NCBI RefSeq assembly: GCF_003018115.1
Contig: NZ_CP027457.1
DNA length: 64,000 bases
Source: Escherichia coli
GTDB lineage: Bacteria > Pseudomonadota > Gammaproteobacteria > Enterobacterales > Enterobacteriaceae
Reading direction: 5' to 3' (one strand)
Under the pieces are notes generated by a model, which saw nothing but the letters and a program-made list of their open reading frames with translations, did no database searches and had not been told where the DNA came from. Each line of letters starts with the position of its first letter. Position 1 is the first letter of the stretch. Positions 11,249-19,375 of this stretch are shown here, piece after piece. The translations under genes and the position numbers were made by a program.

Positions 11249-13390
11249 TCAAAATTGCCGCATATCCGGCATTCCGGGGGGTAAATCTTTCGGCACAGGC
11301 GCATCCGGTACAGGTTGTGTGGCACCACAGTTCCAGTTAATCACCGGCGCATCACCGTTCACATCCGACTCCCCTTCCAGATGAATGTGCGTACCATTAA
11401 GAAATATGCTTCCGTCCTTCGTCAGCACCAGCCTTGCCTTACCACAGCAGAGTTCAAGATGCTCACCGGCAGAATAAACTGCTGTTTGTCCGGTGTTTTC
11501 CTTCATCGTCTTGCCCACCGAGAAGGTGACGTTATTCCCTACATTGACGCTGTAGCCCATTCCCACCATCAGTGATTTATGCAGCCCTACCTGTGAGGAC
11601 TGCAACAACGCCACCGAGGTATTCATAATGCCGCCTACCGTCGTCTGATACGCCACACCCACCGTCAGCGCACGAATGATCCCCACCTTTTCAACCTGGT
11701 TTGATCCCACTTTGATAATCTGGTTACTGCCCACCGTTTCCACCTGGTTGACACCAACCGTCTGTATCTGATTAACGCCAATGTTCTGGATCTGGTTATT
11801 GGTAACGGTGATCGCCTGGTTGTTACCTATTTTTTCGGCATGGTTGTTTATCACATCAGTGGTGCGGTTATTCAGCACCTCGGTGTTCATGTTCTTCTGC
11901 GCGTGGATGTAGACCTGTTCTTTCCCTGTCGCATCGTCAAACTTCAGTTCATTAAACCCGCTGCCCTTATAGGTTTTCGAACGAATGGTCATCTGCGTCT
12001 TTGTTCCCGGCAGGCTGCCGGGTGTGCGGTTTTCCTGGTGGTAGGTGCGCCCCATAATGATCGGCTGGTCCGGATCGCCGTTGAGGAAGTCCACAATCAC
12101 CTCCTGACCCACACGCGGTATCGCCAGGTTACCAAACCCGGTGCCTGCCCACGCCTGTGCCACACGGATCCAGCATGAACTGTCCTGGTTTGACGGGTTA
12201 TAGCGGTCCCAGTTAAATTTCACCCGCACGCGACCATGTTCGTCGCAGAAGATTTCCTCGCCTGCCGGTCCCGTCACGACGGCGCTCTGCGGGCCATCCA
12301 CCAGCGGTTTCAGCAACGGCTGTGGTCGCCATGTTCTGTCTGCCGGTATTACCGCAAAATGGTTATCCAGCGTGGTGCCTGAACCCCTGCGTCCCGGTAC
12401 CGCCTGCGGCTGTTCGCCGTGAAGATCGCTCGCCACCACCTGCCATTCCCGGTTCAGGTTCGCCTGCGGATGCCCCGTCAGCACAATTCGCCGTCCCGGC
12501 CATATCTCCGGCGAACGGCTTGTTCCGCGCGCCACTTCTGCGTTGTTTCGCCAGCCATCCATCTGCCAGCGGGCAAAGTTCTGCCCGTGGGCACCCTTGA
12601 AACGTCCGGGGTAGTCATACACTTCATACTGTGTGCGCTGGTAATCCTGGTACTGGCCTTCCTGATCAAAACGCCCTGCCCAGCCGGGTCGTTTAAAGGT
12701 GTAGTCTTTGGTCACCACGGAAGAAGGGCGGATTTGTGCGCTGTAGCGAAACTGGCTGATGCAGAGGGTGCTTACCTCGGTACGGGTGTTCGGATTCCAG
12801 GGGATCTCAAAGGACTCCGGCAGATAACGCACGGTATCGCACAGGACCAGGCTCTGGTCGGTACTTTTTTGCGCGTGCTCCTCATAAAAGAAGATGCCTT
12901 CCTCCGCCGCCATCCGGCACAGGAAATCGTAATCAGTCTCACCGTACTGGACACAAAACTCACGGGAAGGATGCGGTTCACTGAACAGCGGACTCCACTC
13001 GGTCACCCCGTTTTCCTGCAATATCGTGCCGAGGATGCTTTTGATGTCCTCGTTCTGGAAGATACGGAAGTTCTGGCGCAGCCCTGTGCGCCACAGCGGC
13101 GGGCATACCTTCATGCTGTACAGCTTCTGGTTTTTGTCGTTCTCCCCCAGTTCAAACCAGGTCACCACACCTTTCACCCGGCGCTGTACGTCATCGCCCT
13201 GCCATATCGTCAGGTAGGCCATTTTGTCGAGGATCTGCTGGAATTCAAGGGAGAGAAACTGCTGGCTGACCAGAGAGAGAGCGAGGGAAAAAAGCGAAGA
13301 GAGTGACTGGTTCAGATGAAAGGAGACCACCGCAAAAGCATCCGGTGGCAGGCCGTCCACTTCCAGCGTGAAACGTAATCCGGTTGACAT
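11249..13390 (-). CDS. vgrG: T6SS spike protein VgrG (713 aa)
   Basis: Typical VgrG N-terminus (MSTGLRFTLEVDGLPPDAFAVVSF), gp27/gp5-like core and repetitive beta-helix region (NNQ/VGxNQ repeats). Confidence 0.93.
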   Translation of the reverse strand: MSTGLRFTLEVDGLPPDAFAVVSFHLNQSLSSLFSLALSLVSQQFLSLEFQQILDKMAYLTIWQGDDVQRRVKGVVTWFELGENDKNQKLYSMKVCPPLWRTGLRQNFRIFQNEDIKSILGTILQENGVTEWSPLFSEPHPSREFCVQYGETDYDFLCRMAAEEGIFFYEEHAQKSTDQSLVLCDTVRYLPESFEIPWNPNTRTEVSTLCISQFRYSAQIRPSSVVTKDYTFKRPGWAGRFDQEGQYQDYQRTQYEVYDYPGRFKGAHGQNFARWQMDGWRNNAEVARGTSRSPEIWPGRRIVLTGHPQANLNREWQVVASDLHGEQPQAVPGRRGSGTTLDNHFAVIPADRTWRPQPLLKPLVDGPQSAVVTGPAGEEIFCDEHGRVRVKFNWDRYNPSNQDSSCWIRVAQAWAGTGFGNLAIPRVGQEVIVDFLNGDPDQPIIMGRTYHQENRTPGSLPGTKTQMTIRSKTYKGSGFNELKFDDATGKEQVYIHAQKNMNTEVLNNRTTDVINNHAEKIGNNQAITVTNNQIQNIGVNQIQTVGVNQVETVGSNQIIKVGSNQVEKVGIIRALTVGVAYQTTVGGIMNTSVALLQSSQVGLHKSLMVGMGYSVNVGNNVTFSVGKTMKENTGQTAVYSAGEHLELCCGKARLVLTKDGSIFLNGTHIHLEGESDVNGDAPVINWNCGATQPVPDAPVPKDLPPGMPDMRQF

Positions 13391-13599: not shown

Positions 13600-14118
13600 T
13601 TATGCTTCCAGCGGTGCGCGCCAGTCGTCGGCACCGGAGGTGCCAGATTTGACGTGTTCCCATTCAATTTTGCGGTAGGCCAGTGAAACTTCGAGCAACT
13701 GGGTGAACTCGCGTTTCGCCGGGTCCTGGCAATGCGGCATATGCAGTTTCATATCGACAATCGTCGAATCAGTCAGGCGGGTAGTGAAATAATGCTCCTG
13801 TTTGCCTTCCACAGAGGTACGCCACCAGTGAAGTTCAGTGGTTGGCAGCATTTCGCCGGAGGCCAGTGCGTTGTACATCAGCGGAACCGCTTTGTTCAGC
13901 GCCACGGTAAAAATGAAAGGCTTGTGAGCACGCTGACCCGCAGGCTGACCGGACTGAGGATCGGTCGGGACAGTAACGTTATGCAGGAATTCCTGCACCA
14001 GCATCTCGTCTTCGTGCCCCTGCACATAGATGTTGCCGACAGAATCAGCGGTAAATGCACCTGCAGTAATATTTCCCTGGGTCTGACCAGTGATGGAGAT
14101 ATAACACGGTGTTGGCAT
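13600..14118 (-). CDS. hcp: T6SS inner-tube protein Hcp (172 aa)
   Basis: 172-aa ORF with an Hcp-like N-terminus (MPTPCYISITGQTQGNITAGAF...); size and position upstream of vgrG. Confidence 0.93.
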   Translation of the reverse strand: MPTPCYISITGQTQGNITAGAFTADSVGNIYVQGHEDEMLVQEFLHNVTVPTDPQSGQPAGQRAHKPFIFTVALNKAVPLMYNALASGEMLPTTELHWWRTSVEGKQEHYFTTRLTDSTIVDMKLHMPHCQDPAKREFTQLLEVSLAYRKIEWEHVKSGTSGADDWRAPLEA

Positions 14119-14815
14119 TTGTAAACTCCTTGTTAACGTGGTTAATTACTACTTACAATGACCTGCCGTTAATCCCAGACAGGCAGATGCAGCTCACTTC
14201 ACGGAACCGCATCATTTTTCAGTATTTTTTACATACAAACCGAGCTAGAATTTACGGTTGTCGTAAAAACTATTTTTAAAATCATTAAATCTCTTATTCA
14301 GCAATAACTTAATAATATATATCTGGATAACCATACCCAACTGTTCAAAGTCCGTATTGCCTCCATAAAATGGCCAAAGCTGAATCATGAATAAATATTG
14401 TATTTATCCTTTCTGAATTATCATTTTGATAATTTTTGAGATATTCCTTAAAAATACCCACTTAATCAATCACAAAACAAATATATAAACAAGCAATCAT
14501 TAGATTAGCTTATGTTTAATAAAATTATTATACAATTCAATAAGATGAATAAAAAACCCTATATTTAAATTATTGCCATAATACACCTGACGCGAATTAC
14601 ACAGGTTCACACAATCTATTTAACGCTTGCAGAATACCCCTCTTTACGATCGATAAAAAGTCCTTTTCTTATTTATTTTGAAGCGTAAAATGCGGGGTGA
14701 TGAAGGAGTGGTGATTTTATTTTCACCGCCATTAGGGCGGCATTGCCGATATTTTTTTGCGGTACAAATATGCCGTGTTCATGGCCTGTACGAGATAACA
14801 TGACGGATCACTTTT
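14119..14815. promoter_or_regulatory. AT-rich divergent control region between hcp and tssB
   Basis: ~700 bp without ORFs, visibly AT-rich, between divergent operons; contains a Fur-box-like inverted GATAAT pair (~14414..14436) and GATC sites at 14648 and 14806. Confidence 0.5.
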
Positions 14816-15316
14816 ATGAGCAAAAAATTTGAAGGCAGCGTCGCGCCTCGCGAGCGTATTAATATATCGTATGTCCCAAAAACAGATGGCCAGACGGCTG
14901 AAGTGGAACTTCCGCTTAACATGCTCGTTGTCGGCGATACCGGAAATACGCAGGAAACATCCCCACTGGATGAACGTCAGGCAGTTTCCGTTAACAAGCA
15001 CAATTTCGGTGCAGTGATGGCTGAAGCAGCCATTGGCCTCAATTTTACCGTCCCTGCCACACTGAAGGGAAGCACAACGGACGATGAGCTGAATGTGGCG
15101 CTGAATATCAAGTCACTGGATGATTTTTCACCAGATAGCGTGGCCCGGCAGGTTCCGGAAGTGAATAAATTGCTGGAACTGCGTGAAGCACTGACTGCAC
15201 TGAAGGGGCCGATGGGTAACCTTCCGGCATTCCGTACCCAGCTCCAGGCATTGCTGGAAAATGAAGAGTCCCGCGAGCAGTTGCTCAAAGAAATCGGCCA
15301 GGTGAGCAATAAATAA
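14816..15316 (+). CDS. tssB: T6SS contractile sheath small subunit TssB (VipA)
   Basis: 166-aa ORF, first gene of the structural operon; TssB-like size and sequence. Confidence 0.9.
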   Translation: MSKKFEGSVAPRERINISYVPKTDGQTAEVELPLNMLVVGDTGNTQETSPLDERQAVSVNKHNFGAVMAEAAIGLNFTVPATLKGSTTDDELNVALNIKSLDDFSPDSVARQVPEVNKLLELREALTALKGPMGNLPAFRTQLQALLENEESREQLLKEIGQVSNK

Positions 15317-15350
15317 CCACCACTATTTCATTAAACAGGGTTATCCAGGC

Positions 15351-15575
15351 ATGACGGCACACAAAAATATCTCCGGGACATACCACCTCTCTGTTGCAGA
15401 CATTCTGCAGGTGGTTTACCAGGTATGTTTCAGCCCGTCCGTTGAAATCAACCAGGATGGTGTGGCTGCGCTGATTACAACACTGGATCGCCGTATCAGT
15501 GATCTATTGGATGAGATTATCCATTTTTGTGAGTTTCAGCAGAGCGCGTCGCACTGGCAGCGCGTACTTCACTGA
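15351..15575 (+). CDS. Small ORF (74 aa) resembling the N-terminal region of TssC
   Basis: LDRRISDLLDEIIHFCEFQQSASHWQRVL aligns with TssC IDERISRQMDVIIHAPAFQQVESFWRSL; sits between tssB and tssC. Confidence 0.4.
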   Translation: MTAHKNISGTYHLSVADILQVVYQVCFSPSVEINQDGVAALITTLDRRISDLLDEIIHFCEFQQSASHWQRVLH

Positions 15576-15625
15576 CGGCGAAAAGCCGGTTTCAGAAACA
15601 CAGCTAAAACAGAAGGATTTTCAGT

Positions 15626-17101
15626 ATGTCTTTACAGGAAGAGGAACTCGTTTCCAGTCATGCCGGGCAGCCTGAGCAGGCATCGTCGCTGCTTGATCAA
15701 ATCATGGCACAGACCCGTATTCAGCCCGGTTCGGAAGGTTATGACGTTGCCCGCCAGGGTGTGACAGCCTTTATTGCCAGCATCCTGCAATCCACTGCAT
15801 CTGCCGAACCGGTCAATAAACTGGCCGTGGACAGCATGATTGCAGATATTGATGAACGCATCAGCCGCCAGATGGATGTCATCATCCATGCGCCTGCCTT
15901 TCAGCAGGTCGAGTCGTTCTGGCGCTCACTGAAAACCATGGTGGATCGCGTTGATTTCCGTGAAAACATCAAGGTCAACGTGCTTCATGTCACCAAGCAG
16001 GAACTTCTGGAAGACTTTGAGTTTGCGCCAGAAATTATTCAGTCCGGATTTTATAAGCACGTTTATTCGTCCGGTTTCGGACAGTTTGGCGGTGAACCCA
16101 TCGCTGCCGTGCTGGGCGCTTATGAGTTCAAAAATACCGCGCCTGACATGAAACTGCTGCAATACGTCAGTGCCGTGGGCGCAATGGCGCACGCACCGTT
16201 CCTGTCCTCCGTTTCCCCGGAGTTTATGGGGCTGAACTCGTGGACCGAACTGCCTAATATCAAAGATCTTTATGCCATCTTTGAAGGTCCGGCCTACACC
16301 AAATGGCGCGCCCTGCGTGACTCGGAAGATTCGCGCTATTTAGGGCTTACGGCACCCCGCTTCCTGCTTCGCCAGCCCTATTCACCAACAGATAACCCTG
16401 TTAAGAACTTTAACTATTACGAAGATGTCAGCCAGAACCACGAAGATTATCTGTGGGGTAATACGGCCTGGATGCTGGCATGCAATATCGCAGACAGTTT
16501 TGCCAAATACCGCTGGTGTCCAAACATTATCGGTCCGCAAAGCGGCGGCGCAGTGAAAGATCTGCCGGTGCATCTGTTCGAAACGATGGGGCAGATTCAG
16601 GCCAAAATCCCAACCGAGGTGCTGGTCACCGATCGCCGCGAATTTGAACTGGCTGAAGAGGGTTTTATCACCCTTACCATGCGTAAAGACTCTGATAATG
16701 CAGCCTTTTTCTCTGCAAACTCGGTACAAAAACCGAAGCACTTTCCGGGAAAAGATGCAGAAACCAACTATAAGCTGGGTACGCAGCTTCCTTATCTCTT
16801 CATCATCAATCGGTTAGCGCACTACATCAAGGTGTTGCAGCGTGAACAACTGGGGTCATGGAAAGAAAGGAGCGACTTAGAAAGAGAGCTTAATACCTGG
16901 ATCCGTCAGTATGTTGCCGACCAGGAAAACCCGCCTGCAGACGTGCGCAGCCGCAAACCTCTGCGCGCTGCCAAAGTTGAGGTTATGGATGTAGAAGGCG
17001 AACCCGGCTGGTACCAGGTTGCGCTAAGCGTGAGACCTCATTTTAAATTTATGGGGGCAAATTTTGAGCTTTCCCTGGTTGGCCGGTTAGACAGGGAGTA
17101 A
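15626..17101 (+). CDS. tssC: T6SS contractile sheath large subunit TssC (VipB)
   Basis: 491-aa ORF, canonical TssC length and sequence. Confidence 0.93.
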   Translation: MSLQEEELVSSHAGQPEQASSLLDQIMAQTRIQPGSEGYDVARQGVTAFIASILQSTASAEPVNKLAVDSMIADIDERISRQMDVIIHAPAFQQVESFWRSLKTMVDRVDFRENIKVNVLHVTKQELLEDFEFAPEIIQSGFYKHVYSSGFGQFGGEPIAAVLGAYEFKNTAPDMKLLQYVSAVGAMAHAPFLSSVSPEFMGLNSWTELPNIKDLYAIFEGPAYTKWRALRDSEDSRYLGLTAPRFLLRQPYSPTDNPVKNFNYYEDVSQNHEDYLWGNTAWMLACNIADSFAKYRWCPNIIGPQSGGAVKDLPVHLFETMGQIQAKIPTEVLVTDRREFELAEEGFITLTMRKDSDNAAFFSANSVQKPKHFPGKDAETNYKLGTQLPYLFIINRLAHYIKVLQREQLGSWKERSDLERELNTWIRQYVADQENPPADVRSRKPLRAAKVEVMDVEGEPGWYQVALSVRPHFKFMGANFELSLVGRLDRE

Positions 17102-17107
17102 CACACC

Positions 17108-17521
17108 ATGATACCGGATCGGGAAAGAACCACAGGTTCTCTTTTTGAGCGTATGGAAGCCTCTTCGGCCAGAAACCGGCAGGGAGGCAGTATTCATTCG
17201 CTCAGGCAATCCATTCGCCAGAACCTACGAAACATTCTTAATACCCGGTCCGGTAGTTGCCGGGGTGCGCCTGAGCTGGGCATTGATGAACCGGAAGGGG
17301 CTGAAAACTTCCGCGAATCCATGAGTCGGGCCATCGAGCAATGTATAGAACGCTATGAACCCCGGATCTCACACGCTGAAGTGCAGGCAGTGGTTTCATC
17401 CGCCTCCAGCCCGCTGGATATGACGTTTCATATTACAGCCTGGGTGACATTTAACGAAACGCATGAGGTGCTTGAATTTGATATGGCACCGAATGGCAGC
17501 CAGCATTACCGGGTGGACTGA
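17108..17521 (+). CDS. tssE: T6SS baseplate protein TssE (gp25-like)
   Basis: 137-aa ORF following tssC; gp25/GPW-like size and position. Confidence 0.85.
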   Translation: MIPDRERTTGSLFERMEASSARNRQGGSIHSLRQSIRQNLRNILNTRSGSCRGAPELGIDEPEGAENFRESMSRAIEQCIERYEPRISHAEVQAVVSSASSPLDMTFHITAWVTFNETHEVLEFDMAPNGSQHYRVD

Positions 17522-17524
17522 CAA

Positions 17525-19375
17525 ATGGAATTTGAAGAACGCTATTTTCGGGAAGAACTCGATTACCTGCGCCAGCTTAGCAAGCTGCTGGCAACGGAAA
17601 AACCCCATCTGGCCCGCTTCCTGGCCGAAAAAGATGCGGATCCGGATATTGAACGCCTGCTGGAAGGGGTGGCTTTTCTTACCGGCAATCTCCGCCAGAA
17701 AATTGAGGATGAATTCCCAGAACTGACGCACGGGCTTATTAAGATGCTATGGCCTAATTACCTGCGTCCGGTTCCGGCAATGACCCTTATTGAATATACG
17801 CCGGATATGGATAAGTCTTCTGTACCGGTGTTAATCCCCCGTAATGAGCAGTTTACAACCAACGCCGGGGAAATCAGAGTTGATGAAGTGCTGCCCTCTG
17901 ATGCTAAAAAGGAGGAGCCGCCTCCCTGTACCTTCACCCTCTGCCGGGATATCTGGCTGCTGCCCGTTCGCCTGGAGCAGATTGAAAACCGCAGTACGAC
18001 CCGTAATGGTGTTATCAACATCACCTTTTCGGTCGCACCGGGAACGGATTTCCGCACGCTGGATCTGAACAAACTTCGCTTCTGGCTCGGCAATGACGAC
18101 AACTATACCCGTGACCAGCTTTATTTATGGTTCTGCGAATACTTGCAGGGTGCCGACCTGACTGTGGGTGAACAGCATATTCGCCTGCCTGAGTTTATGC
18201 TAAAAGCTGTCGGTTTTGAGCCGCAGGATGCCATGCTGCCCTGGCCGAAAAACGTCCACAGCGGCTACCGGATCCTTCAGGAGTATTTCTGTTACCCCGA
18301 TGCGTTTCTCTTTTTTAATCTTTGTGGTTGTCCGGCTTTGCCTGACGGATTGCAGGCGGAATTCTTTACCCTGCAACTGCGTTTTTCGCGCCCTTTGCCC
18401 GTGGACATCCGGCTGCGCCGCGATTCCCTGCGCCTGTATTGCGCACCTGCCATTAATTTATTTATCCACCATGCAGAAGCCATCACGCTGGACAACCGGC
18501 GGGCAGACTATCCGCTGGTTCCCAGCCGCCATTACCCACAACATTACGATGTATTTTCCGTTAACAGTGTGGTGAGCCAGGTCCAGGATATGTTCAGGAA
18601 AAAAGATCTGGGGCGTCCTGTTTCGACGCAGGCCGCGCGCCAGTGGCCAGCCTTTGAAAGTTTCAGCCATCAGATGGAATACAGCCGGAAGCGGGAAGTG
18701 GTGTACTGGCATCACCGGACCAAAACATCCCTGTTCCATCGCGGCTTTGATCATACCCTTGCCTTTATACATGCTGATGGCAGTTATCCGTCAGACGAAT
18801 CTCTGCTCAGTAATGAAGTGGTTTCGGTATCGCTGACCTGTACCAACCGTGAGCTTCCGTCACAAATTCGTTCCGGCGATATCACCGGCACAACCGGTAA
18901 AAATGCGGCTGTTGCTTCATTTCGCAACATTACCCGCCCGACGCAACCACTCTGGCCGGTCATTGATGGCAGCCTGCACTGGTCCCTACTCTCCGCCATG
19001 AACCTGAATTATCTGTCATTACTGGATACGGACGCGCTGAAGCAGGTCATCGCCAACTTTGATCGCCACGCAATCCATCATCCGCAGACGGCACGGCTGT
19101 CACAACAAAAGCTGGATGCCATTGAGCGTCTGGAGACCCGCCCCGTTGATCGCCTGTTTACGGGTATTCCCGTCCGGGGGCTGGCCTCCACGCTGTATCT
19201 GCACCCGGAGCCGTTTGTCTGTGAAGGGGAAATGTATCTGCTCGGTACGGTGCTTTCGCATTTTCTGTCGCTGTACGCCAGCGTTAACTCATTCCACATG
19301 CTGACCGTTGTGAACACAGAAAGCCAGGAGACATGGAAATGGACGGAAAGAATCGGGCAGCATCCTCTTATCTGA
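17525..19375 (+). CDS. tssF: T6SS baseplate protein TssF (VasA)
   Basis: 616-aa ORF; conserved position and TssF-like N-terminus. Confidence 0.9.
   Translation: MEFEERYFREELDYLRQLSKLLATEKPHLARFLAEKDADPDIERLLEGVAFLTGNLRQKIEDEFPELTHGLIKMLWPNYLRPVPAMTLIEYTPDMDKSSVPVLIPRNEQFTTNAGEIRVDEVLPSDAKKEEPPPCTFTLCRDIWLLPVRLEQIENRSTTRNGVINITFSVAPGTDFRTLDLNKLRFWLGNDDNYTRDQLYLWFCEYLQGADLTVGEQHIRLPEFMLKAVGFEPQDAMLPWPKNVHSGYRILQEYFCYPDAFLFFNLCGCPALPDGLQAEFFTLQLRFSRPLPVDIRLRRDSLRLYCAPAINLFIHHAEAITLDNRRADYPLVPSRHYPQHYDVFSVNSVVSQVQDMFRKKDLGRPVSTQAARQWPAFESFSHQMEYSRKREVVYWHHRTKTSLFHRGFDHTLAFIHADGSYPSDESLLSNEVVSVSLTCTNRELPSQIRSGDITGTTGKNAAVASFRNITRPTQPLWPVIDGSLHWSLLSAMNLNYLSLLDTDALKQVIANFDRHAIHHPQTARLSQQKLDAIERLETRPVDRLFTGIPVRGLASTLYLHPEPFVCEGEMYLLGTVLSHFLSLYASVNSFHMLTVVNTESQETWKWTERIGQHPLI

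What the first reader, a model, noticed from the sequence alone, without database searches (positions are those of the whole stretch)
15351..15575. Small ORF between tssB and tssC encodes a peptide resembling the TssC N-terminal region
The 74-aa ORF occupies the tssB-tssC intergenic space and its C-terminal half aligns with TssC residues ~65-100 (LDRRISDLLDEIIHFCEFQQSASHWQRVL vs IDERISRQMDVIIHAPAFQQVESFWRSL). Nucleotide similarity to the tssC 5' region is only moderate, so this is not a fresh duplication. Protein-level conservation suggests either a selected small sheath-interacting protein or an old partial duplication. This TssC region contributes to sheath subunit contacts, so a free mimic could modulate assembly.
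Basis: seen in the sequence. Interest (0 to 1): 0.5.

Follow-up and report, generated by a model that had tools for sequence, protein, structure and literature searches.

The report
Decaying tssC fragment between tssB and tssC
The small gene-like stretch between two type VI secretion sheath genes of E. coli is a real but decaying leftover copy of the start of the neighbouring sheath gene tssC, and it shows no sign of being kept today as a working protein.

Summary
A 74-codon ORF (15351-15575) fills the 309-bp tssB-tssC gap of an E. coli T6SS-2-type cluster. Its codons 27-72 are homologous to TssC residues 57-102 (hhalign E=1e-13).

It is an old partial duplication of the tssC 5' end, not a demonstrably selected sheath mimic.

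- The spacer exists only in one enterobacterial T6SS subfamily. Two outgroup clusters have 19-23 bp junctions.
- The ORF is intact in Escherichia and in two Salmonella-type groups.
- It is broken by independent nonsense or frameshift lesions in five groups (C. youngae, Yokenella and three metagenomic or SRA-assembly groups).
- It is almost wholly deleted in three more lineages.
- In all of these, tssB, tssC and tssE stay intact.
- Between intact copies dN/dS is 0.75-1.5, against 0.03-0.14 for tssB and tssC.
- Only the last ~45 nt (the tssC leader and Shine-Dalgarno site) is kept everywhere.

One signal points the other way. The deep branch between the Escherichia and Salmonella types shows a third-codon-position excess, which hints at past constraint. 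Translation could not be tested.

Verdict: gene relic, confidence about 0.7, low interest.

The parts
14816..15316 (+). tssB (sheath small subunit, 166 aa). Its stop codon marks the upstream edge of the spacer.
   Evidence: Pfam T6SS_VipA E=1.1e-51. Annotated tssB in identical E. coli loci.
15317..15625 (+). 309-bp tssB-tssC spacer. As a whole it is the remnant of a duplicated tssC 5' segment plus the tssC leader.
   Evidence: Present in 2258 of 5426 complete E. coli genomes. Orthologous spacers of 278-315 bp occur in Salmonella, C. youngae, Yokenella and metagenomes. Three lineages have it reduced to 94-137 bp. Outgroups have 19-23 bp.
15351..15575 (+). 74-codon ORF, annotated as hypothetical protein WP_000123970.1 in RefSeq. 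It is the still-open reading frame of the relic.
   Evidence: dN/dS is 0.9-1.5 within Escherichia. The Shine-Dalgarno site is weak, -3.8 kcal/mol.
15351..15428 (+). ORF codons 1-26, the fastest-evolving part. It possibly derives from the tssC start codon region: relatives begin MSLRED, MGLREE or MQEEDGVS, against TssC MSLQEEELVS.
   Evidence: sequences. DNA tests are not significant, p=0.05-0.12. E. marmotae has a 48-nt in-frame deletion starting in this part and running into the following part.
15429..15566 (+). ORF codons 27-72, the segment securely homologous to TssC residues 57-102.
   Evidence: hhalign 98%, E=1e-13. DNA local alignment z=10-15. AF2 models it as one long helix.
15580..15625 (+). 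Conserved ~45-nt tssC leader with the Shine-Dalgarno site AAGGA (15613-15617). It is the only spacer part retained in every spacer-bearing lineage, including those with large deletions.
   Evidence: Alignment A6. SD duplex -5.5 kcal/mol at 7-nt spacing.
15626..17101 (+). tssC (sheath large subunit, 491 aa, intact). It is the functional downstream copy.
   Evidence: Pfam VipB E=1.8e-126 plus VipB_2 E=3.5e-45. dN/dS 0.03-0.14.
15794..15931 (+). tssC codons 57-102, the paralogous counterpart of the ORF core.
   Evidence: hhalign columns. About 50% nucleotide identity to the ORF core.

Best explanation
The ORF is the still-open remnant of an ancient partial duplication. A unit made of the tssC ribosome-binding region plus roughly the first 100-118 codons of tssC was probably duplicated in tandem in the ancestor of one enterobacterial T6SS subfamily. 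That subfamily includes E. coli T6SS-2 type, some Salmonella, Citrobacter youngae and Yokenella. The downstream copy stayed joined to the rest of tssC and remained the working gene. The upstream copy became a 3'-truncated tssC' between tssB and tssC.

Since then the relic has lost about 28 internal codons and drifted to about 50% nucleotide identity with tssC. It now evolves without protein-level constraint. It has been broken by nonsense or frameshift mutations, or deleted, in most lineages. In Escherichia it simply has not been hit yet.

The spacer part that is retained in every lineage is the last ~45 nt, which is the tssC leader and Shine-Dalgarno site.

Shown: homology, restricted distribution, dN/dS near 1, and independent lesions and deletions. 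Inferred: the tandem-duplication mechanism, that the ORF start is the old tssC start, and lack of function.
For: Origin:
- ORF 27-72 is homologous to TssC 57-102. It is on the same strand, collinear and immediately upstream.
- Outgroup clusters with TssB about 69% identical to the C. youngae TssB used as query have 23-bp and 19-bp tssB-tssC junctions and no spacer.

No current protein-level selection between intact copies:
- Window against E. coli 746: 15 nonsynonymous to 3 synonymous changes, dN/dS 1.48.
- Window against E. albertii: dN/dS 0.91.
- tssB and tssC in the same pairs: 0.03-0.14.
- Salmonella L010 or L014 against metagenomic L023: 0.75-1.2, against 0.06-0.13 for the neighbours. The L023 copy even carries a proline in the most TssC-like motif.

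Independent inactivation, with tssB, tssC and tssE intact:
- C. youngae: TGA at codon 21.
- Yokenella: +1 frameshift and a TAG.
- L015: frameshift and a TAG.
- L016: -1 frameshift.
- L063 and L020: frameshifts and deletions.
- L011, L012 and L017: spacer cut to 126, 137 and 94 bp.

Other points:
- Only the 3' ~45 nt is universally retained.
- Two open lineages among seven is within neutral expectation. Simulated P(open) is 0.35 after 25 substitutions and 0.10 after 55.
- The ORF region evolves at 0.5-1.0 times the four-fold-site rate of its neighbours.
- Family searches find called homologues only in Escherichia.
Against: - On the deep branch between the Escherichia-type and Salmonella-type copies, the TssC-like half shows a third-codon-position excess ([16-19, 13-16, 28]; my hypergeometric estimate from the counts is p about 0.001-0.01). 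This suggests the peptide was constrained for part of its history. Gene conversion from tssC does not explain it.
- The ORF is intact in at least 2240 E. coli genomes, in E. albertii and in two Salmonella-type groups.
- The spacer has almost no indels and evolves more slowly than the hcp-tssB intergenic region.
- The Salmonella copy has a strong Shine-Dalgarno site, -8.2 kcal/mol.
- AF2 gives a fairly confident helical hairpin, pLDDT 77.
- Whether the clusters with broken ORFs are functional was not shown.
- Some lesions come from draft or SRA assemblies, for example the frameshift in an A6 run in L015.
Confidence: 0.7

Rival explanations
1. ORF74 is a lineage-restricted, fast-evolving micro-protein born from the TssC N-terminus. 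It is translated from the tssB operon mRNA. Its long helix, equivalent to TssC 57-102, binds TssB or a neighbouring TssC and tunes or brakes sheath assembly. It has been lost repeatedly where it is not needed.
For: - The ORF is intact in three lineage groups.
- The third-position excess on the deep branch implies past protein-level constraint.
- It has an ATG start and a strong Shine-Dalgarno site in Salmonella.
- AF2 predicts helices at 15-27 and 35-73 with pLDDT 77.
- The N-terminal part of TssC is the TssB-binding part: the first 212 residues in B. cenocepacia and P. aeruginosa, and residues 1-384 in EAEC (PMC3840085).
Against: - dN/dS is 0.75-1.5 between intact copies in both clades.
- Eight related lineage groups have it broken or deleted beside intact, strongly constrained sheath genes.
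- The motifs most like TssC are themselves mutated (LD to PD in L023).
- Only about 46 of the at least 212 residues implicated in TssB binding are present.
- The Shine-Dalgarno site in E. coli is weak.
- No Pfam or NCBIfam family matches other than sub-threshold TssC hits.
- No literature mentions it.
Confidence: 0.15
2. The spacer matters in cis, not through its peptide. It acts as an extended tssC leader. It could set the TssB:TssC ratio, bind CsrA, or need to be translated only so that ribosomes cover about 225 nt and prevent Rho-dependent polarity on tssC. That would keep the frame open while the amino-acid sequence drifts.
For: - The frame is open but dN/dS is about 1, which is the pattern expected if translation itself rather than the peptide is selected.
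- The spacer evolves at about 0.5-0.65 times the four-fold-site rate and has few indels.
- The 3' 45 nt is invariant in all lineages.
- Lineages with a broken ORF tend to have shortened spacers of 94-137 bp.
- CsrA regulation of EHEC tssC and an AGGA motif upstream of tssC are reported in PMC13141884.
Against: - No Rfam match.
- No promoter-like or terminator-like site inside the spacer.
- The RNA fold is not better than shuffles, z=-1.37.
- The consensus structure is weak, with little covariation.
- Outgroup clusters work with a 19-23 bp junction.
- C. youngae, Yokenella, L015 and L016 keep full-length spacers with broken frames.
Confidence: 0.15

Closest known systems
TssC/VipB sheath large subunit, N-terminal region (Pfam PF05943, NCBIfam TIGR03355)
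   Same: ORF codons 27-72 are homologous to TssC residues 57-102. These are the first ordered residues in solved VipB/TssC chains: the match falls at chain positions 5-37 of 3J9G_B and 63-100 of 5URW.
   Different: The ORF covers only about 32 of 301 Pfam profile positions. It scores 17-19 bits against cut-offs of 27 and 271.5. It lacks the rest of the VipB domain and the gpW/gp25-like C-terminal domain. It evolves neutrally.
Gene relics left by partial tandem duplication (5' gene fragments or pseudogene remnants next to the intact paralogue)
   Same: It is a collinear, same-strand, truncated copy directly upstream of the parent gene. It is absent in outgroups, has dN/dS near 1, and shows scattered independent lesions and deletions.
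   Different: It has stayed open for 70-74 codons in three lineage groups. It also carries a deep-branch signal of earlier constraint. RefSeq annotates it as a protein, not a pseudogene.
Small T6SS accessory proteins that bind the sheath, such as TagJ/HsiE1 (PMC4239648, title seen; details from my own knowledge)
   Different: There is no sequence relationship. No accessory-family model matches in Pfam or NCBIfam. The ORF is not conserved across clusters of its own subfamily.

Membership tests
TssC/VipB (PF05943 + PF18945; TIGR03355) | Scores above the curated family threshold. | tested here: not met
   PF05943 gives 17.3 bits against a cut-off of 27. TIGR03355 gives 19.1 bits against 271.5. 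Eight of nine family members hit PF05943 only below threshold.
TssC/VipB (PF05943 + PF18945; TIGR03355) | Full two-domain architecture of about 490 aa. | tested here: not met
   The ORF has 74 aa and matches profile positions 2-33 of 301. There is no VipB_2 domain.
TssC/VipB (PF05943 + PF18945; TIGR03355) | Sequence homology to the TssC N-terminal helix region. | tested here: met
   hhalign probability 98%, E=1e-13, ORF 27-72 against TssC 57-102. BLASTP E=2e-8.
Relic of partial tandem duplication of the adjacent gene | Collinear, same-strand copy of the 5' part of the neighbouring gene, directly upstream of it. | tested here: met
Relic of partial tandem duplication of the adjacent gene | Absent at the orthologous junction of outgroup clusters. 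| tested here: met
   Superficieibacter L013 has a 23-bp junction and Salmonella L018 a 19-bp junction.
Relic of partial tandem duplication of the adjacent gene | No purifying selection on the encoded peptide (dN/dS about 1). | tested here: met
   dN/dS is 0.75-1.5 on recent branches in two clades, against 0.03-0.14 for the neighbours. The deep branch departs from this with a third-position excess.
Relic of partial tandem duplication of the adjacent gene | Independent inactivating lesions or deletions in relatives whose neighbouring genes stay intact. | tested here: met
   Five broken lineage groups and three deleted ones.
Relic of partial tandem duplication of the adjacent gene | The upstream copy starts at the parent gene's own start and RBS, as expected for a tandem unit. 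| tested here: inconclusive
   ORF N-termini MSLREDTS (L020), MGLREETS (L010) and MQEEDGVS (L016) resemble TssC MSLQEEELVS. The DNA tests give p=0.05-0.12.
Functional small protein (sORF) | Reading frame conserved across related clusters. | tested here: not met
   The ORF is intact in three lineage groups and broken or deleted in eight.
Functional small protein (sORF) | Translation initiation signals. | tested here: inconclusive
   ATG start. SD duplex is -3.3 to -3.8 kcal/mol in Escherichia (similar to tssB) and -8.2 in Salmonella.
Functional small protein (sORF) | Evidence of translation or of a stable product. | not testable with these tools
   No expression data were available. The EHEC T6SS is H-NS-silenced in vitro (PMC13141884). 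No paper mentions the ORF.
Structured cis-regulatory RNA | Match to a known RNA family, or a conserved, covarying or unusually stable structure. | tested here: not met
   Rfam gives no match. The fold z-score is -1.37. The RNAalifold covariation term is -1.8 kcal/mol.

The most novel reading that the evidence does not exclude
ORF74 is a young, rapidly evolving micro-protein made from the first structured helix of TssC. It is translated in Escherichia and some Salmonella and acts as a free TssC-N mimic that binds TssB, or caps growing sheaths, to modulate T6SS-2 assembly. Its loss in other lineages would then reflect dispensability rather than non-function.
Probability: 0.1. Interest if true: 0.6.

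Novelty: new member of a known kind. Interest (0 to 1): 0.2.

Why it matters
Mostly as a correction. About 2,250 complete E. coli genomes carry a 'hypothetical protein' here (WP_000123970.1 in the O157:H7 record checked). That entry is best read as a tssC-derived relic, not as an uncharacterised T6SS component. This saves effort for people dissecting the EHEC, APEC and NMEC T6SS-2.

It is also a neat, datable example of how a partial duplication inside an operon decays: open frame, then nonsense or frameshift, then deletion back towards a short junction. Throughout, the downstream gene's leader is preserved.

If the minority reading were true, it would be a rare case of a structural-subunit fragment recruited as a regulator of a contractile machine.

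Tried and rejected
- Rfam scan of 14100-15800: nothing.
- Promoter and terminator scan: no site inside the spacer.
- RNA folding of the spacer: z=-1.37.
- Consensus folding of nine spacers: weak. The only invariant hairpins are ATGGAT...ATCCAT and the tssC start region, and neither shows covariation.
- AF2 model plus Foldseek against the PDB: a helical hairpin with no significant match.
- Gene conversion from tssC as the cause of the deep-branch third-position excess: not supported. Informative sites split 8:7 against 7:9.
- Clustering of retained TssC residues at the same sites: not significant once sites lost on the shared stem are excluded, p=0.08.
- Alternative coding frames or the opposite strand: all carry stops.
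- DNA evidence that the ORF's first 25 codons come from the tssC start: p=0.05-0.12, so left as suggestive.
- Extension of homology past the ORF stop to tssC codons ~103-118: not significant, p=0.09-0.35.
- Literature searches for the protein accession, locus tags and T6SS-2 cluster descriptions: no discussion of the ORF.
- The genome-contig scan with TssB returned only four loci. Further lineages were reached through TssB homologues and their contigs and through a DNA-pattern scan of metagenomes, in which 4 of 47 hits were real.
- A fused TssB-linker-ORF AF2 run was considered and dropped, because the tool returns no inter-residue error map with which to judge an interface.

Full report
**What is there**

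The window carries an E. coli type VI secretion cluster, with these genes:
- vgrG, 11249-13390, minus strand
- hcp, 13600-14118, minus strand
- tssB, 14816-15316
- tssC, 15626-17101
- tssE, 17108-17521
- tssF, 17525-19375

The gap is 100% identical to many E. coli chromosomes, including O157:H7. It occurs in 2258 of 5426 complete E. coli genomes. In the records checked it is annotated as 'hypothetical protein' between tssB and tssC (WP_000123970.1 in O157:H7 TR01; a different accession in strain 746). Published work calls the EHEC cluster T6SS-2 and names tssB z0264 (PMC7216683).

**Is the resemblance to TssC real?**

Yes. The evidence is:
- BLASTP against the adjacent TssC gives E=2e-8, ORF 15-72 against TssC 50-102.
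- Pfam VipB and NCBIfam TssC models hit the same stretch below threshold.
- Solved VipB/TssC chains hit it at their first ordered residues.
- A profile of nine ORF-family sequences aligns with a profile of TssC N-termini at 98% probability, E=1e-13, ORF 27-72 against TssC 57-102.

At the DNA level the core is about 50% identical to tssC in the codon register. It is still far above shuffled controls, with z=10-15 in Escherichia.

The first 25 codons are not significantly similar to tssC. In relatives, however, the ORF begins MSLREDTS, MGLREETS or MQEEDGVS, against TssC MSLQEEELVS (p=0.05-0.12). This suggests that the ORF's ATG is the duplicated tssC start and that about 28 internal codons were later lost.

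**Distribution**

Protein searches find called homologues only in Escherichia. I collected 18 tssB-tssC junctions in three ways:
- a genome scan with TssB;
- TssB homologues and their contigs;
- a DNA-pattern scan of metagenomes.

| Group | Spacer | State of the ORF |
|---|---|---|
| Outgroups, TssB about 69% identical to the C. youngae query (Superficieibacter, another Salmonella system) | 23 and 19 bp | no spacer |
| E. coli (two alleles), E. albertii | 309 bp | intact, 74 codons |
| Salmonella L010 and L014 | 290 bp | intact, 70 codons |
| Metagenomic L023 and L031 | 290 bp | intact, 70 codons |
| E. marmotae | not measured (short contig) | 48-nt in-frame deletion, 58 aa |
| C. youngae | 290 bp | TGA at codon 21 |
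| Yokenella | 291 bp | +1 frameshift plus TAG |
| L015 | 292 bp | frameshift plus TAG |
| L016 | 315 bp | -1 frameshift inside the IIH motif |
| L063 and L020 | 282 and 278 bp | frameshifts and deletions |
| L011, L012, L017 | 126, 137, 94 bp | ORF removed |

All the spacer-bearing clusters belong to one subfamily (TssB about 75% or more identical). In every case tssB and tssC are full length, and tssE is full length wherever the fetched locus reaches it. Only the last ~45 nt before the tssC ATG, including the AAGGA Shine-Dalgarno site, is retained in all spacer-bearing lineages.

**Selection**

Between intact copies the ORF behaves like unconstrained sequence.

| Comparison | ORF dN/dS | tssB and tssC dN/dS |
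|---|---|---|
| Window vs E. coli 746 | 1.48 (15 nonsynonymous : 3 synonymous) | 0.03-0.14 |
| Window vs E. albertii | 0.91 | 0.03-0.06 |
| Salmonella L010 or L014 vs L023 | 0.75-1.2 | 0.06-0.13 |

- One intact copy has a proline in the best-conserved TssC-like motif.
- The ORF region accumulates substitutions at 0.5-1.0 times the four-fold-degenerate rate of its neighbours.
- Simulation shows that an open frame survives 25 random substitutions 35% of the time and 55 substitutions 10% of the time. Intactness within Escherichia is therefore unremarkable. Two open lineages among about seven deep ones is within chance (p about 0.15).

**What does not fit neatly**

- Between the Escherichia-type and Salmonella-type copies, the TssC-like half differs more at third codon positions ([16-19, 13-16, 28]; my hypergeometric estimate from these counts is p about 0.001-0.01). 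This is what past purifying selection on the peptide would leave. Lineage-specific gene conversion from tssC does not explain it.
- The spacer has almost no indels and is more conserved than the AT-rich hcp-tssB intergenic region.
- All ~12 changes that separate the window allele from the 746 and E. albertii alleles are nonsynonymous.

These observations keep two rivals alive. One is a lineage-restricted micro-protein. The other is a cis role in which translation of the spacer or the leader RNA matters rather than the peptide.

Against the RNA idea:
- no Rfam match;
- no promoter or terminator;
- a fold no better than shuffles;
- weak covariation.

For the micro-protein idea:
- AF2 predicts a helical hairpin, pLDDT 77, although it matches nothing in the PDB.
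- The Shine-Dalgarno site is strong in Salmonella but weak in E. coli.
- The TssC N-terminal region is known to be the TssB-binding part (PMC3840085), but the ORF keeps only about 46 residues of it.

**Mechanism I commit to (confidence 0.7)**

A tandem duplication of [tssC RBS plus the first ~100-118 codons] took place in the ancestor of this subfamily. The downstream copy stayed functional. The upstream copy became a truncated tssC', which has been decaying ever since: point changes and small deletions first, then nonsense or frameshift mutations, then large deletions that collapse the spacer towards the ancestral short junction. Selection has preserved only the tssC leader throughout.

The Escherichia ORF is the relic at a stage where its frame is still open. 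The relic may have been tolerated or even useful early on. Nothing indicates that it is maintained as a protein now.

**Comparison with what is known**

It is not a member of the TssC family. The thresholds and the domain architecture were tested and not met. It is a fragment homologous to that family. It fits the known category of partial-duplication gene relics. It has no relationship to known sheath-binding accessory proteins.

No paper in the searchable library discusses it. 'Z0263' is listed next to T6SS genes in one survey (PMC10657854), but I could not confirm that it is this ORF.

**Limits**

- Translation and binding were not testable here.
- The function of the clusters with broken ORFs is inferred from intact, constrained neighbouring genes only.
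- Several lineages come from draft, SRA or metagenome assemblies.
- The substitution counts per branch are small.

Noticed in passing
L001 6310-7785 (E. coli O157:H7 TR01, NZ_CP033605.1); corresponds to window 15626-17101: tssC of this O157:H7 strain carries CAG to TAG at codon 464, so RefSeq annotates a 463-aa TssC that lacks the last 28 residues. The window's tssC is intact. This might bear on reports that the EHEC T6SS cannot be activated (PMC13141884)..
   Followed up: partly
window 14816-15600 compared with L002 (E. coli strain 746): There is a recombination mosaic. tssB dS is 0.205 and the spacer is 6.5% divergent. The hcp-tssB intergenic region (K=0.019) and tssC (dS=0.012) are nearly identical. 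A foreign tract therefore starts near the tssB 5' end and ends just after the ORF.
   Followed up: partly
window 15351-15575 compared with L002 and L003: About 12 changes separate the common E. coli allele from the 746 and E. albertii alleles. All are nonsynonymous in the ORF frame, and three are CGG to CAG (Arg to Gln).
   Followed up: no
protein P0033; corresponds to window ~15351-15428 joined to ~16870-17101: Some E. coli assemblies (7 contigs) encode a 100-aa fusion of ORF74 codons 1-26 to the last ~74 residues of TssC. This is a deletion that removes most of tssC, and so inactivates the T6SS.
   Followed up: no
window 15507-15524 and 15869-15886: The MD(E/V)IIH motif is encoded by a palindrome (TGGAT...ATCCA) in both the relic and tssC. 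In the relic the stem is invariant in eight of nine full-length spacers, and there is no covariation.
   Followed up: partly
window 15617-15645: An invariant small hairpin (UUUUC.GUA......UAC..GGAAG) spans the tssC start codon in all nine full-length spacers. It might affect tssC translation initiation. There is no variation with which to test it.
   Followed up: no
L015 3748-4077 and L016 4876-5205: In these two lineages tssE is called as 109 aa instead of 137-138 aa, with an ~80-bp gap after tssC. This suggests a different start or a 5' lesion.
   Followed up: no
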